A DNA stretch of 64,000 nucleotides. Origin: Somniosus microcephalus (Eukaryota). Position 1 is the stretch's first letter, and every line of letters begins with the position of its first letter. This document shows positions 6,051 to 54,108 of this stretch, in pieces. A program made the translations under genes and the position numbers. The notes under the pieces were generated by a model that did not search any database, was not told the origin of the DNA, and saw nothing but the letters and a program-made list of their open reading frames with translations. The stretch is from contig CM126226.1 of the NCBI GenBank assembly GCA_052327205.1, positions 48,360,001 to 48,424,000 on the forward strand. The letters are read 5' to 3'.

Positions 6051-8450
6051 CTCTTCTTCTCATTCTTCTTAGGCAGTCCCTCGGAACCAAGGAATGACTT
6101 GCTTCCACACTAAAAATGAGTTCTCAGGTGACTGATGAGTCCAATGTGGGACCTACAGTCTGTCACAGGTGGGGCAGACAGTGGTTGAAGGGGCGGGTGG
6201 GTGGGGTGCTTGGGTTGACGTATGCCTTCTGGCGAAGAGACTCGAGGTGTTCGGCGCCTTCCCGGATGCTTCTCCTCCACTTTGTGCGGTCTTGGGCCGG
6301 GGATTCCCAGGTGTCGGTGGGGATGTTGTACTTTTTCAAGGAGGCTTTGAGAGTGTCCTTGAAGCGTTTCCTCTGCCCACCTGGGGCTCTCTTGCCGTGC
6401 CGGAGCTCCGAGTAGAGCACTTGTTTTGGGAGTCTCGTATCGGGCATGCAGACGATGTGACCCGTCCATCGGAGTTGATCAAGTGTGGTCAAAGCTTCGA
6501 TGCTGGGGATGTTGGCCTGAGCGAGAACACTGTCGTTGGTGCGCCTATCCTGCCAATGGATTTGCAGGATCTTGTGGAGGCAGCGTTGGTGGTACCTCTC
6601 CAGTGCTTTGAGGTGCCTGCTGTACATGGTCCATGTCTCTGAAGCATAGGAGGGCAGGTATCACTACTGCTCTGTAGACCATGAGCTTAGTGCTGGGTTT
6701 GAGGTCCTGGTCTTCAAACACTCTCTTCCTCAGGCGACCGAAGGCTGCACTGGCAGACTGAAGGTGGTGTTGGACTTCGTCGTCTGCCCTTGTTGACAGT
6801 AGGCTCCCGAGGTATGGAAAGTGGTCCACGTTGTCCAAGGCCTCGTCATGGATTTTGATAATCGGGGAGCAGTACTGTGTGGCAGGGGCAGGCTGGTAGA
6901 GGACCTTTGTCTTACGGATGTTTAGTCTAAGGCCCATGCTCTCGTACGCTTCGGTGAAGGTGTTGACGATGGTTTGGAGTTCGGCTTCAGAGTGTGTGCA
7001 GACGCAAGCGTTGTCTGCATACTGTAATTCGATGACAGAGGATGGGACGACCATGGATCTGGACTGGAGATGACGGAGGTTGAACAGTTTCCCATTTGTT
7101 CTGTAGATTAGCTCCACTCCAGCAGGGAGCTTACTGAGGGTGAGATGGAGCATTGCAGCCAGGAAGATCGAGAAGAGCGTTGGTGCGATGACACAGCCTT
7201 GCTTGACCCCGGTCCGTACGTGGATTGGGTCTGTGGTGGATCCGTTGGTCAGGATCATGGCTTGCATGTCATCGTGAAGCAGGTGGAGGATGGTGACAAA
7301 CTTTTGAGGGTAGCTGAATTTGAGGAGGACACTCCATAATCCCTCACGATTAACTGTGTCGAAAGCCTTTGTGAAGTCAAAGAAAGCCATGTACAGTGGT
7401 TGGTGCTGTTCCCTGCATTTCTCTTGTAGTTGATGCGCGGTGAAGATCATGTCCATTGTGCCCCTTAGTGGGCGGATACCGCATTGCGACTCTGGGAGGA
7501 GCTCTTCAGCCACTGGGAGAAGGCGATTGAGGAGGGTTTTTGCAATGACTTTCCCTGTGGCAGACAGCAGGGAGACTCCTCTGTAATTACCGCAATCGAA
7601 CTTGTCACTTTTCTTGAAGATGGTCACGATTATTGAGTCTCTGAGATCCCCTGGCATGCTCTCCTCTTTCCAAATAAGAGAAATGAGTTCATGAATTCGC
7701 GCCAGTAGTGCTTCTCCGCCATGCTTTAGTGCCTCGGCGGGGATTCCATCTGCTCCTAAGGCCTTGTTGTTCTTCAGTTGTCGGATGGCCTTTTCAACCT
7801 CATGCCGGGCTGGGGTTGTGCTGAGGTGGTGGCGGGTAGCATGCTGTGGGATGGAGTTGAGGACACTCACGTCGAAGGCAGAGTCGTGGTTAAGGAGATC
7901 TTCGAGGTGCTTCCTTCCAGCAGGCACCGACTGCCTCTCTGTCCTTGATGAGTATCTCTCCGTTCTTGGCCCACAGTGGGGTAGGACCTTGGGTGCTTGG
8001 GCCGTAGATGGTCTTGACTGCGCTGAAGAATCCACGCACGTCGTGGTTGTCGGCTAGCTGCTGGATCTCCTGCGCTTTCTCCACCCACCATCTGTTCTTT
8101 AGGTCGCGAGTTTTTTGTTGGACCTCGGCCGTCAGGCGTCTGTAGCGCCGCCTTCTTGCTCTCAAGTTCTGTTGCAGTTTCCAGATCAGGAATGCCTTGC
8201 GCTTGCGGCTTATTAGCTCCGGGATCTCCTGGTCGTTCTCGTCGAACCAGTCTTGGTGTTTCCTGGTCGAGTGACTGAGCGTCTCTTCACAGATGCTGAT
8301 TATGGAGGCCTTGAGTGCAGACCAGACGCTGTGGACACTCTGTCTCTGAATCACTGGGAGCCGTCAGGTTGGTTGTGAGGCGCAGGCTGAATAAGGCTTT
8401 CTTAACAGGATCTTTCAGTGCTCCAGCGTTGATTTTCCTGCGGCGGGGCT
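6051..8450 (-). mobile_element. RTE-clade (BovB-like) LINE, 5'-truncated and frameshifted
   Basis: ORFs 7890-8354, 6545-8035 and 6163-6627 join into an RTE ORF (WFDEND, GNYRGVSLL, FDFTKAFDTVNR, GVKQGCVIAPTLF, QYADN, QLRWTGH, GGQRKRFKDTLK, IGLISHLRTH). (GAA)n-type 3' tail at about 6051-6070; visibly GC-richer than the flanks. Confidence 0.92.
6545..8035 (-). pseudogene. Reverse-transcriptase domain of the RTE LINE (inactive)
   Basis: RT motifs present, but catalytic YADD reads YADN and there are frameshifts on both sides. Confidence 0.85.
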
Positions 8451-9050: not shown

Positions 9051-9738
9051 CCAATGTCTGAAAACACATTTAAAGATATGCTTAATAAAAAATGCTTAAG
9101 AGTATATGGTTTTCATTAACTCATTGCACAGGGAGGGCACGTTTCTTGGGTTACACTTCAGAATTAATGAGGAGACATATGTTCAGAAATGGTATCAAGG
9201 CAGCCCAATTAACTTGTGAGGAATCATGTCATATTACAGAAAGTCCATTGCAGGGATTGATAAAAATCTGACTACACACTTATTTGAGATGGTGAATTAG
9301 TATTCAGGTCAAAGCATTCAAACACGAGGTGCAATGCATAAATGGTCCTCAGCATTTTCAAGTTCATAAACAAGCCAAAGGATGATGAGAAGCAGTCAAG
9401 TTTGAAGACAACCCAGAAATTAGAAAGCTATCGAAGCAACAAGTCTTTTGGGGAGAATTTTTCATGCTCAATAAGACAAGGGCCTCAAGGTTTCGCTGAA
9501 TAAACATTTTTGCACATCTGGTGCCTAGTGTCTTATAACAAATTATACCAGGTCAAGTATAGCATTCATAGATGAAGAGTAAAGCTTTCTCTGTTCTATT
9601 CGAACAATATGCCCAATTCCCATATTTTGAGCAAACCTACATCATTGCTAGTGTTGCCAACCCTCCAGGCTTGTCTTGGATTCTCCAGGGATTGAAGATT
9701 AATCTTCAGGACACTGTTGCGAGCAAACCAGGAAAAAA

Positions 9739-10027
9739 ATAGAACCATAGAAATTTACGACACAGGAGGCCATTCGACCCATCATGTCTGTGCTGGCCCA
9801 TAAAGAGCTCTCCAGCCTAATCCCACTTTCCAGCTCTTGGGCCGTAGCCCTGTAGGTTACGGCACTTCAAGTGCATATCCAAGTACTTTTTAAATGTGAT
9901 GAGGGTCTCTGCCTCTACCACCCTTTCAGGCAGTGAGTTCCAGACCCCCACCACCCTCTGGGTGAAAAAAGTTCTCCTCAACTCCCCTTTAATCCTCCTA
10001 CCAATTACTTTAAATCTATGCCCCCTG
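9739..10027 (-). mobile_element. CR1 LINE 3' fragment
   Basis: ORF 9817-10071 RGHRFKV...FFTQRVVGVWNSLP is the CR1 ORF2 C-terminus, followed by the hairpin/(ttctat) tail. Confidence 0.9.
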
Positions 10028-10081
10028 AAATCAGAGACTTCAAATAAAATTGTGCTTTTCCACACTTTCATTTATTAGATA

Positions 10082-10712
10082 CTAGCTGGGGGAGCCCGGG
10101 TTTGCCAGGGCTGTTTTGGGCCGGGCGGTTTAAATCGAGTCCCAGGCTTTTGGGCCCTGTCTGTGTCCCTCTCTCAATCTGCTGCTGGGCAACATTTCTA
10201 CCTTTTAACACCTTGAAAGATGAAAGTGAAAGTACTTATAAAACGTTTTTGGTAAATCTCTTAAAAATAACATAAGAGATACTAACTTTTTCGAAGCCGG
10301 ATGAGCAGATTTTGAGCTGGAAGTAAATGGGGTTTTTAGCTTGAGGCAATGGCTGCCACATCCCGGAGATGAAAACGATTAGTCCCGCCCACAGACGCAG
10401 CGATTGGCCAGCCATCAGGCGACTGAACTGTAGGATTGGTCAATCGTGACGGCACAGGATTGGTCGAACCTTGACGTCAGTCAATCAATGCTAAGTAGCA
10501 GATAATGAGTTTAATTTTGAAGGTTTTTTGCATAAGGCGCGAACAATTTTCGTCCGACCGAAAAGTAAATACGCTTACGACTGTCCCGGAACCGTAAGCT
10601 TTCTTTGGAGGTAACGCACGCGTAGGAACGCTCTAACTTTCGAGCGCATAGCCGGACAGACGCACACCGGAGGACAGAAGGACAGACAGACAGACGATAA
10701 AAATATTGGAGA
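10082..10712 (-). mobile_element. Non-autonomous Helitron (631 bp), both termini present
   Basis: Minus strand: A|TCTCCAATATT... then a (ctgt)n microsatellite near the 5' end. The 3' end has a GC hairpin ccctgg-caaa-cccggg about 10 nt before CTAG|T. AT target, no TSD. Confidence 0.78.
10345..10545. promoter_or_regulatory. CpG-rich promoter-like motif cluster inside the Helitron
   Basis: YY1-like aatggctgcc at about 10349, GC box gtcccgccc 10382-10390, ATTGG at 10403/10435/10459, TGACGTCA 10472-10479, TTTGAA 10516-10521, GGCGCGAA 10536-10543. Confidence 0.55.
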
Positions 10713-12877
10713 TGGGGGGGGGGGGGGGGGGGGGGCTGTTTCACAAACAGTCACGATTAATCTAATTAATCTAAAAGAGTCTGTTCCCTTTCCAATTGGC
10801 CGTGGGAAGGCAGTGCACCTGGAGGATGGACCAGTGGCAGGAGTGTGGGGGGGGGGGGGGGGGCAGGCTGGTTTGAGGTGGGAGGTCATGTGATGAAATC
10901 TCCAGGAATACACCCAGCCAGAGTTGGCAAACCCAATCACTGCACTAGCATACATTTTCTGCTTTCCCATCAGCAGGCCATTGTTATGTCCTCTCTGCAT
11001 GAGATTGATAATTCAGAGCCAAATTATTGAAATGTTTTGAACTATGTACCCATGCCTATTAGGAGATTGGTTGAGACTGCCCAAACTCAATCCAGGTGAC
11101 TGGACAGTGTTCTCGCCTCCACTTCACTATACAGTCCCCCAGCAATACATTACTTCTTAAAGGTATGCCAACAAAACAGCATGTTCGTTTTGAGAACATT
11201 GTCCTTTCTGCTCCTCCAAAGTGCAACTCTGAAGGAGGAGAAAGGTCAATACGCTGCTAAAAATTTACCTGTAAATACGGTGAGGCATGTTCAGCTTATT
11301 TAAAGTGACATTTAAAAGTCAATAGGGGCTCCCAATTTTTTTTTATAAAATGAGATCAAGGAACACGCAGGTACGAAAAGCAATTTCGCAAGATCAATTC
11401 TCTCAGCTGACCAAGACTAACACAAACATAAAACAATGGACATGAATTTCAAAGCAACGTTCCCCCTTCAACACATTTACTGTTATGTGCTTCAATGTTA
11501 AAACACACACACTTAACTTAGAAACTGAGTGACCTCTTATGTTCCCGTTTGGAAGAAATGCATCAGCTGCAAATGTTACTAATAGTCGCTTTAGAAAATG
11601 TAATACATGGCTGATTTTGTTGGCTTTTTATGGCACTTCAAAGTATTAGTGGCACTTTGAAGTTTGTTTACCCTTGAATATATCTTCAGTATTGAGTAAT
11701 TCAGATTTGTTTTGGTTTTTGCTTGCTTGGTATTTATAAAAACATGTTTGGATACGTGATAATAAATATTGACCAGCAGTGCAACAAAGGATCAATGTGA
11801 ATATATTAACTACTCTATTTATTGCAATAACCTCATCTGGGAATATATCCAAGAAAGGTCAGGGTTTTCAAACCTATTCATTCTCAATGGTTACAAACTG
11901 ACTGCTACTTAGCCACAAAGTCCTGCATATATGCCAGGTTTTCCTTGAAAGCAACAGTTTTTCATTTTGACATCTTTTTGATTAAGAAAAACAGTTTTGT
12001 ACTAAGAATAATTATGATTCAACAATTGCTGGGAGGCGAAAATGAGAAATACTAAAAAAAGAGATACTGATAAATGCCACGTCAGCAGCACATTTCCTGC
12101 TGGCATATTAACATGAAATAAGACCCTGGTGCATTTGTCCATATTTTTATTCTGACTTTGAATTCCTTGAAATAAAATGTAACTGGATTATAACATCATG
12201 GCAGTATAGTTTGTAGTGACATGTTGTCATATCCTGACAGTAAATCCGGTATTGCAGTGAGTGAAGTTAAAAGGAAAAAAGGTTGTTTTAATCATTACTC
12301 AAATTCACAAGGTATTGCAATGCATCACAGAATGTGAAATACAAAATTTAGAAACTATTTTTAAATCCAGCAATTAAATGGAGTATAGCACATAGGCATT
12401 TTGCACAATCGCTACTTCATGTTACTACTATAGTCAAACAACATCACTATGATTATTTTAAAGCTTTTGATACCCATCCTCACTCACAAATGAAATACAT
12501 CAATTAAATATACAAAAATGAAATACACAGCATTTGATTTCTAATCAAAGAGCTGCTACTTTGAATATAGCCTCCTGACATTTTCAAAGCCTGCCTAATT
12601 GGACAGCTTTCATAATTTCTTGGTACAACCACTAGATGGAGCACCACACAGTAAAGGTATAACCAGCAGTAAAAGGCCCCATCACATCGTAGCACACCTG
12701 TCACTGTCAGCTGATGAAGTTTGCAGCCAAGAGTGCCCTGCCTTCCCAGTTGAAAGAGGAAGTGTGGCAGTTGGAGACAGCTAGAAGGAAGGACAAAAGA
12801 AATTAAAATTACCAGACTCACTCTACATGTGAGCTGGATGTAACTTAAGAACATGCAAAATGATAAGACTGATAACC

Positions 12878-30785: not shown

Positions 30786-30794
30786 ACTTGCCTC
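30786..30794 (-). promoter_or_regulatory. Non-canonical GC 5' splice site (GAG|GCAAGT)
   Basis: RERE similarity stops exactly here (orthologues continue ...YRPG-DCVYIE). Reading through hits TAG two codons later. The site matches the U2 donor consensus at every position except +2. Confidence 0.75.
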
Positions 30795-31092
30795 CAGGCC
30801 TGTAGACAACATCATCCTCTGTTACAAATGAAGTTATATCTCCGGTCTCTGCTCTCTCATAACGCGATTTCTTTTTAGGTGGTTTCTTTATTTTTGACTT
30901 TTTCCCAGACTCCTCGTTAGTAGCACTGTCTTTGTCGTTGTCTTCATCTTCAGTGTGGTCACTTTCCGCATAATTCTTCGCACCTCCTTCCAAAGTGCAG
31001 CTGCGGCGCGGCCTGGAATGTTCATTCTCTCGTTTATCCCTTCTATCTCTCTCCTTGTCCCGGTCACGATCTTTCTCTTTATCTGCTGTCAT
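30792..31092 (-). CDS. RERE: First coding exon of RERE (arginine-glutamic acid dipeptide repeats protein / atrophin-2): 100 codons + 1 nt, running into the start of the BAH domain
   Basis: Translation [53 protein letters not shown]...[31 protein letters not shown] matches the recalled vertebrate RERE N-terminus. There is an in-frame upstream stop near the exon start and no upstream ATG. The exon ends in phase 1 at GGAG|GCAAGT. Confidence 0.95.
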
Positions 31093-47164: not shown

Positions 47165-47510
47165 ATCACAGAATCACAGAAACCCCACAGTGCAGATAGA
47201 GGCCATTTCGGCCCATCGAGCCTGCACCGACACATATCCCACCCGATCCCCGTAACCCCTACACCAACACATATCCCACCCTATCCCTGTAACCCCACGT
47301 ATTTAATCCCCCTAACACTAAGGGTCAATTTATCATAGCCAATCAACCTAACCCGCACATCTTTGGACTGTGGGAGGAAACCGGAGCACCTGGGGGAAAC
47401 CCACGCAAACACGGGGAGAATGTGCAAACTCCACACAGACAGTCACCCGAGGCCGGATTCGAACCCGGGTTTCTGGCGCTGTGAGGCAACAGTGCTAACC
47501 ACTATGCCAC
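47165..47510 (-). mobile_element. Full-length HE1-type V-SINE
   Basis: tRNA head (gtggcatagtggttagcac...ggttcgaatccgg), V domain (gtgtggagtttgcacattctccccgtg...ggtttcctcccacagtccaaagatgtgc) and CR1-like tail. Confidence 0.9.
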
Positions 47511-53941: not shown

Positions 53942-54108
53942 AAAATTGACCCTTAGTGTTAGGGGGATTAAATACGTGGGGTTACGGGGATAGGGTGGGA
54001 TGTGTGTTGGTGTAGGGGTTACGGGGATCGGGTGGGATATGTGTCGGTGCAGGCTCGATAGGCCGAAATGGCCTCTATCTGCACTGTGGGGTTTCTGTGA
54101 TTTCTGTG
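53942..54108 (+). mobile_element. 5'-truncated HE1-type SINE
   Basis: Near-identical reverse complement of 47165-47330, including the internal duplication. Confidence 0.88.

What the first reader, a model, noticed from the sequence alone, without database searches (positions are those of the whole stretch)
10082..10712. Complete non-autonomous Helitron in a cartilaginous-fish RERE intron
Seen on the minus strand: 5' TC, a (CTGT)n tract followed by gtccggctatgcg, a 3' GC hairpin then CTAG, inserted between A and T with no TSD. The interior is CpG-rich. Known: this is canonical Helitron structure; microsatellite-bearing 5' ends typify insect Lep1-like non-autonomous families, and Helitrons are patchily distributed in vertebrates with documented horizontal transfer. 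Inference: possibly an unannotated, young or horizontally acquired family.
Basis: partly seen in the sequence, partly recalled or inferred. Interest (0 to 1): 0.7.

Follow-up and report, generated by a model that had tools for sequence, protein, structure and literature searches.

The report
Clipped Helitron copy in shark intron
This is one of more than a thousand related copies of a rolling-circle jumping gene (Helitron) in a cartilaginous fish genome; this copy has lost its front end and likely cannot move again, and the family tends to land in sequences that resemble its own front end.

Summary
Real Helitron, wrong 5' end, not complete. The element spans window 10697-10082 (minus strand, 616 bp), in sense within a RERE intron of a cartilaginous fish. 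The copy lacks the family's TC(TA)nAAA terminus, so it is likely immobile. The family is large: 1,119 exact 3'-end 25-mers; this copy is 1.3% from the consensus; CpG is decaying sixfold faster than other sites. RepHel elements with a related 5' end and hairpin exist, some with long open frames; none carries this exact 3' end as its own. Insertions favour A|T-N5-6-ATAA (11 of 30; 1.6 in shuffles), like the element's own start, and 10 of 40 copies abut another Helitron. Horizontal transfer is unproven: the best outside RepHel is 58-61% identical. Lep1 kinship is not supported. The scan already noted Helitron stacks and promoter-like cassettes elsewhere in this genome. New family of a known kind.

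The parts
10082..10697 (-). Non-autonomous Helitron1 (HLE1) copy, 616 bp, lacking the first ~18 nt of the family terminus; longest ATG frame 59 aa
10082..10085 (-). 3' terminal CTAG, followed by host T
   Evidence: T follows CTAG in 40 of 40 and 42 of 43 other copies
10094..10111 (-). Subterminal hairpin; one G>C change weakens it (-5.7 kcal/mol against -7.2 in copy L020)
10129..10197 (-). One unit of a ~69-bp subterminal repeat that most close copies carry twice
10349..10479 (-). Promoter-like motif cluster: TGACGTCA (10479), CCAAT x3 (10463, 10439, 10407), GC box (10390), GCCAT core (10353); the CCAAT-CCAAT-GC box-GCCAT order is shared with autonomous elements, whose splice donor is lost here. 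Motif names are recalled; no activity shown
10645..10697 (-). Clipped 5' region: internal TC, (CTGT)n-type tract, gtccggctatgcg
10698..10930 (-).
10040..10081 (-). Same host repeat continuing after the insertion; begins T-N5-ATAAA, the family's favoured target
30793..31092 (-). RERE coding exon with the start codon; the next coding exon lies at G000:C25:48,354,795, 5.2 kb beyond the window start, so the element sits in a ~36-kb intron, in sense

Best explanation
The stretch 10697-10082 is a non-coding copy of a large canonical Helitron family, inserted between A and T without a target duplication in an older repeat inside a RERE intron; it was likely pasted there by a RepHel transposase made by a related autonomous element, and it likely cannot move again because its 5' terminus is missing. 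Shown: boundaries, empty site, family size, missing 5' terminus, RepHel elements with related ends, target motif, head-to-tail neighbours, CpG decay. Inferred: (1) the family arose from an autonomous element by keeping its first ~350 bp (terminus, microsatellite, promoter-like motifs) and gaining a new interior and 3' end; (2) RepHel in trans nicks the TC terminus, peels the strand to the hairpin-CTAG and joins it into A|T; (3) the protein prefers targets that read like its own 5' end (A|T-N5-6-ATAA), which would explain why copies pile up head to tail; (4) this copy lost its first ~18 nt either by starting at the internal A|TC or by a later deletion between two ATC triplets, which give the same sequence; (5) the CpG richness is inherited promoter-like sequence that has had little time to decay and is methylated.
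For: Family: 3,725 candidates, 40 scored, best copies 92-97%; 1,119 exact 3' 25-mers, reversed-pattern control 0; 181 exact hits of an internal 29-mer. Ends: T after CTAG in 40 of 40 copies taken in chromosome order. Empty site: 23 of 24 paralogues. Partner: 407 Helitron_like_N candidates, 150 scored, all over the cut-off; 7 of 7 long frames examined keep HUH, Y2 and Walker B, 6 of 7 the usual Walker A; elements A and H (12.0 and 10.3 kb) begin with the family's terminus, match the window copy at 80-82% over ~215 bp and 73-74% over ~100 bp, and end in a like hairpin plus CTAG; dN/dS 0.46-0.64 between RepHel subfamilies. Target: T-N5-6-ATAA in 11 of 30 non-Helitron flanks, shuffles mean 1.6, maximum 8 of 2,000, 64 of 5,050 AT sites in the window (a set fetched after the motif was noticed); 18 of 32 in the earlier sets. 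Stacking: Helitron start right after CTAG in 10 of 40 and 11 of 43; CTAG right before the start in 7 of 25 and 9 of 48. CpG transitions 7.2% against 1.2%. The clipped start did not spread: 2 genome-wide pattern hits, the other being inside a full-length start. The 5' terminus is essential for Helraiser (PMC4778049 section 8).
Against: No autonomous element has this family's exact 3' end as its own: among 9 RepHel loci it appears only in family copies joined to the tail (A, E), and 0 of 6 further upstream stretches held RepHel. Only 9 of 407 candidates were read to their ends. The hairpin alone is not significant (z -1.2 to -2.0). Some flanks counted as non-Helitron are (TA)n runs that may be worn Helitron starts, which would inflate the motif count; 19 of 30 flanks lack the motif. 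Copies were chosen by likeness to the window copy or by exact words, so divergence is biased low (median 1.1% in one set, 5.1% in the other). No mobility, expression or methylation was measured.
Confidence: 0.9

Rival explanations
1. The whole RepHel lineage entered this fish lineage once by horizontal transfer, probably from an invertebrate, and then radiated.
For: All 30 Rep loci compared are one lineage, 85-100% identical; synonymous distance among 7 frames is at most 0.15, on a long stem (0.38) whose nearest row is an unnamed ENA protein. No chondrichthyan name among the 240 listed RepHel hits, although the database holds at least eight chondrichthyan genera. Near-identical DNA was found in only 6 runs of 3 organism labels. 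Helitron transfer among vertebrates is documented (PMC12001565 passages).
Against: No donor: the best outside hit is 58-59% (full length) or 61% (fragment). Only about a quarter of proteins are named and gene annotation often skips transposons. A long stem with a shallow crown also follows from vertical descent with turnover. Sharks mutate slowly (PMC10587355 passages), so 0.15 can be old. Helitrons are listed in the whale shark and as likely ancestral in vertebrates (PMC4350176 passages). The tree is FastTree on 36 chosen rows, unrooted.
Confidence: 0.35
2. Head-to-tail stacks come from rolling-circle over-replication (concatemers) or plain AT-rich preference, not from a target that mimics the 5' end.
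For: Precise CTAG-TC junctions form in Helraiser circles and Helraiser prefers AT-rich 3' flanks (PMC4778049 passages and section 10). Some arrays hold near-identical neighbours (L017, L118/L119).
Against: Most neighbours are other subfamilies at 70-88% identity, or autonomous 3' ends, which one round of replication cannot give. The motif count exceeds shuffles that keep each flank's base content.
Confidence: 0.25
3. One reading: a complete element from TC at 10712, of Lep1-like insect origin.
For: A|TC does stand at 10713-10711; 5' microsatellites in insect Helitrons are recalled, not checked.
Against: 10712-10698 is host repeat; no other copy matches from position 1; named insect RepHels are 45-56% identical and the insect rows of the tree are not the shark rows' sister; Lep1 ends in CTRY.
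Confidence: 0.03

Closest known systems
Non-autonomous canonical Helitrons (HLE1/Helitron1); definition in PMC11417382 (passages)
   Same: 5' TC, 3' hairpin plus CTRR, A|T insertion, no target duplication, no terminal inverted repeats, RepHel partner in trans.
   Different: New sequence family; this copy lacks the 5' terminus; the extended target motif is not in the passages seen.
Helibat/HelibatN and Helraiser of vesper bats (PMC4778049; passages, sections 8 and 10)
   Same: TC/CTAG ends, AT target with AT-rich 3' flank, Helitrons inserted next to each other, 5'-truncated copies, cross-mobilised non-autonomous families.
   Different: Host is a cartilaginous fish; no captured host gene seen; activity not shown; no bat protein name among the listed hits.
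Heli1Xen1 of Xenopus and other vertebrates (PMC12001565; passages)
   Same: Young vertebrate Helitron1 with TC...TATATAAA start and CTAG end, many short non-autonomous copies.
   Different: Hairpin differs (GCCC.GGC...GCCGGGC here, CCCGTTA...TAACGGG there); amphibian RepHels found are 52-54% identical and fall in other clades; horizontal transfer is shown there, not here.
Lep1 Helitrons of Lepidoptera (PMC4038834; passages)
   Same: Short, non-autonomous, 5' TC, A|T insertion, often intronic.
   Different: Lep1 ends in CTRY and is defined by a 134-bp core; no sequence comparison was possible.

Membership tests
Helitron1 (HLE1), non-autonomous | 3' CTRR terminus | tested here: met
   CTAG at 10085-10082; 1,119 exact 25-mers ending in CTAG
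Helitron1 (HLE1), non-autonomous | Subterminal hairpin 10-15 nt from the 3' end | tested here: met
   18-nt hairpin, 12 nt from the end, same place in family and autonomous ends; energy alone not significant
Helitron1 (HLE1), non-autonomous | 5' TC terminus | tested here: met
   Family starts TC(TA)nAAA, blurred by (TA)n and stacking; the window copy starts at an internal TC
Helitron1 (HLE1), non-autonomous | Insertion between A and T, no target duplication | tested here: met
   Empty site in 23 of 24 paralogues; T after CTAG in 40 of 40
Helitron1 (HLE1), non-autonomous | Autonomous RepHel partner with shared ends | tested here: inconclusive
   Shared 5' terminus and 73-82% 5' region, similar but not identical 3' end
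Helitron1 (HLE1), non-autonomous | No coding capacity | tested here: met
   Longest ATG frame 59 aa
Complete (mobilisable) copy | Intact left terminal sequence | tested here: not met
   First ~18 nt absent
HLE2 (Helentron/Helitron2) | Short terminal inverted repeats | tested here: not met
   Only an internal 78% pair of 18 nt
HLE2 (Helentron/Helitron2) | T|T insertion | tested here: not met
   A|T
Lep1 | 3' CTRY terminus | tested here: not met
   CTAG here; Lep1 feature
Lep1 | 134-bp Lep1/LSCS3 core | not testable with these tools
   No Lep1 sequence available from a tool
Heli1Xen1 | Hairpin CCCGTTA...TAACGGG | tested here: not met
Horizontally transferred Helitron | Element divergence far below host-gene divergence in a distant taxon | tested here: inconclusive
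   No close distant-taxon relative among listed proteins; organism names in runs are coded

The most novel reading that the evidence does not exclude
A single, horizontally acquired Helitron1 lineage has radiated in one shark group, still has full-length RepHel frames, and homes to a sequence-specific site (A|T-N5-6-ATAA) that mimics its own 5' end, so that it targets itself and builds composite elements: a natural, possibly still active vertebrate Helitron with a defined target code.
Probability: 0.2. Interest if true: 0.6.

Novelty: new member of a known kind. Interest (0 to 1): 0.3.

Why it matters
The copy itself is ordinary and likely dead. The family matters modestly: cartilaginous-fish genomes are described as poor in DNA transposons (PMC6817897, PMC5381603; passages), and here one Helitron lineage has over a thousand young copies and several hundred RepHel candidates, some with long open frames. 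If the extended target motif holds, it would give a simple rule for how RepHel chooses targets and why Helitrons stack, testable with about a thousand natural insertions. The corrected boundary also shows how a chance A|TC in AT-rich host sequence misleads Helitron calls made from one locus.

Tried and rejected
5' end at 10712: rejected by family alignment and empty site. Clipped start as its own subfamily: rejected, 2 hits, the second not clipped. Autonomous element ending in this exact 3' end: none in 9 RepHel loci or 6 upstream stretches. Close donor for horizontal transfer: none above 61% in two protein searches. Structured RNA: two weak Rfam matches outside the element, far below cut-off. 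Locating RERE by the Atrophin-1 family gave no answer; done by exon homologues and neighbouring DNA instead. The careful tree did not finish; FastTree used. Runs: X1-X3 carry the unique flanks nearly unchanged and are not independent; X4-X6 cover only repeats, so the orthologous site in organism C could not be read; X7 covers the neighbouring repeat but not the Helitron, with library unknown, so this is no evidence of absence. Summed contig depth was not used as copy number. Papers: searches (Helitron with shark, Chondrichthyes, elasmobranch, rolling-circle) showed no family-level description in their listings; two showed no title on this target motif. Kosek et al. 2021 is not held and may bear on target choice. 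No supplements were read; whale-shark Supplementary file 20 may bear on novelty. A look-up of earlier findings by this sequence was empty.

Full report
Observation. On the minus strand the window shows CTAG at 10085-10082 followed by T, an 18-nt GC hairpin at 10111-10094, and (CTGT)3 then gtccggctatgcg near 10693-10645. CpG o/e is 1.03 against 0.37 for the window. The hairpin alone is not above chance (26 of 200 shuffles fold as well); the case rests on the family.

Family and boundaries. A search of the own genome gave 3,725 candidates, 40 scored, the best at 92-97%. The 3' 25-mer occurs 1,119 times exactly, its reversed control 0 times; it is shared by several subfamilies of about 600-970 bp. 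Other copies start with TC(TA)nAAA(A/C)GGATCG(A/T)TCTGTCTG. The left flank 10698-10930 is a separate, older repeat (3,367 candidates, best copies 78-84% identical). In 23 of 24 of its paralogues, read by eye, the sequence runs from ...CCAATATTTTTA directly into TAACTAATAAATGAAAG or a close variant, which is what follows the window's CTAG with one mismatch. So the element is 10697-10082, 616 bp, inserted at A|T with nothing duplicated or lost from the host, and it lacks the first ~18 nt of the family terminus. It begins at a TC that is internal in the family. An internal start at A|TC and a later deletion between two ATC triplets give the same sequence, so I cannot separate them. The clipped start is a one-off. 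Since the left terminus is essential for Helraiser (PMC4778049 section 8), this copy is likely immobile. By eye, a few other copies are clipped near the same place (L013, L014, L124, L134).

Context. A coding exon at 31092-30793 (minus) has cartilaginous-fish RERE proteins as its 12 best hits (92-99%). The next coding exon lies at C25:48,354,795 and further ones follow on the same strand. The element therefore lies in sense in a ~36-kb RERE intron. Nothing suggests an effect on the gene.

Age and CpG. Over a 529-bp core covered by 54 of 57 copies, the window copy differs from the majority sequence at 1.3% of non-CpG sites; medians are 1.1% (set, including the window) and 5.1% (set, which mixes subfamilies). 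CpG transitions stand at 7.2% against 1.2% for other C and G sites, which points to methylation with little time for decay. Both sets are biased towards the window copy. Young is relative: at the epaulette-shark rate of 7e-10 per generation (PMC10587355 passages; another species, tenfold interval) 1.1-1.3% is about 16-19 million generations.

Partner. Helitron_like_N has 407 candidates; 150 were scored, all over the cut-off. I read 9 loci of 20-30 kb. Seven hold long frames with HUH, Y2 and helicase motifs, one of 1,700 aa from its first ATG. The 30 Rep loci compared are 85-100% identical; between subfamilies dS is 0.10-0.15 and dN/dS 0.46-0.64, so the lineage radiated while transposing. Elements A and H start with the family's terminus, match the window copy at 80-82% and 73-74% over two 5' blocks, and end in a like hairpin plus CTAG. 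None has this family's 3' end as its own; in A and E a family copy is joined to the tail of the autonomous end. After a lead from earlier scan notes I checked the CpG-rich interior: the order CCAAT, CCAAT, GC box, GCCAT is shared with the autonomous 5' regions, where a splice donor follows the GC box; the family has lost that donor. The motif names are recalled and no activity is shown.

Target choice and stacking. In 40 copies taken in order along C1, T follows CTAG in 40; another Helitron start follows directly in 10; CTAG precedes the start in 7 of the 25 where my pattern found a start. Of the 30 other flanks 11 read T-N5-6-ATAA, against a mean of 1.6 and a maximum of 8 in 2,000 shuffles, and 64 of 5,050 AT sites in the window. 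I noticed the motif, so one search is the independent test; the earlier sets give 18 of 32 (55 copies examined, 43 with a recognised 3' end; dropped beforehand: the window copy, L113 as a duplicate, L017 and L119 as arrays, and L125, which was not in fact fetched twice). The window's own flank fits the motif. The element's start, TC(TA)nAAA, fits it too, which would explain stacking of unlike subfamilies. AT-rich 3' flanks and adjacent insertions are known from bats (PMC4778049); the fixed spacing was not in the text I saw, but the structure paper most likely to discuss it was not available.

Horizontal transfer. The RepHel's best outside relatives are 58-59% identical (unnamed metagenome proteins; a rotifer at 57%), 61% for a fragment; none of the 240 listed hits is named as a chondrichthyan. 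In a FastTree tree of 3 shark and 33 chosen rows the shark proteins sit on a long stem beside an unnamed protein, apart from amphibian and insect rows. Near-identical DNA appears in 6 runs of 3 coded organisms. This fits one old entry by transfer, but also vertical descent with turnover; no donor is identified. I give transfer 0.35.

Comparison and novelty. The element meets the HLE1 definition (PMC11417382 passages) and fails HLE2, Lep1's CTRY end and Heli1Xen1's hairpin. Helitrons are already listed for the whale shark (PMC8455134, one passage); searches showed no family-level description for sharks, but repeat libraries could not be searched. The scan holds 12 other Helitron notes for this genome, covering stacks and promoter-like clusters (8 shown). 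For all papers I saw search listings, passages or the named sections only; no whole text and no supplement.

Verdict. A real, 5'-clipped copy of a young, abundant non-autonomous Helitron1 family; new member of a known kind; interest 0.3. The target motif and the RepHel radiation are the parts worth following.

Noticed in passing
window 30792-30786 (minus): The RERE start-codon exon appears to end in a GC splice donor (GGAG|GCAAGT) rather than GT; not checked against transcripts.
   Followed up: no
window 9700-10081: The host repeat is interrupted twice: by the Helitron and by a ~290-bp piece of another abundant repeat (about 9740-10027; LINE-like by recall); its far half resumes near 9740-9675.
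   Followed up: partly
L197 (G000:C1:19298882, minus): A solo 3' end: only the last ~39 nt of the family (hairpin plus CTAG) flanked by unrelated sequence, with no RepHel in 10 kb upstream.
   Followed up: partly
L061/L062 and L069-L071: Autonomous-type elements carry family copies joined CTAG|TC at their tails; by eye 2 of 11 listed C1 RepHel loci have the exact family end within 14 kb downstream, with 79 such ends on 465 Mb.
   Followed up: partly
L074:4646-9745 (minus): Uninterrupted 1,700-aa RepHel frame with all catalytic motifs; lies in a C4 region (135-145 Mb) with many near-identical Rep hits; its ends were not found in the fetched stretch.
   Followed up: partly
L061-L079: The RepHel N-termini carry variable tandem peptide repeats (ASETP.Q.QARQ type), and long pyrimidine-rich minisatellites lie between the 5' end and the ATG.
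   Followed up: no
window 6163-8363 (minus): Broken reverse-transcriptase frames of a LINE (RTE-like by recall) in the same intron.
   Followed up: no
window 47221-47296 and 53978-54053: Two 37-bp-period tandem repeats in opposite orientation 6.7 kb apart, possibly the ends of one element.
   Followed up: no
L181, L192, L193: Further, more divergent Helitrons of the same lineage (70-83%) lie in other RERE introns within 200 kb.
   Followed up: no
run X7: Covers the neighbouring repeat deeply but shows zero depth over the Helitron, despite sharing a species label with X2; library type unknown.
   Followed up: no
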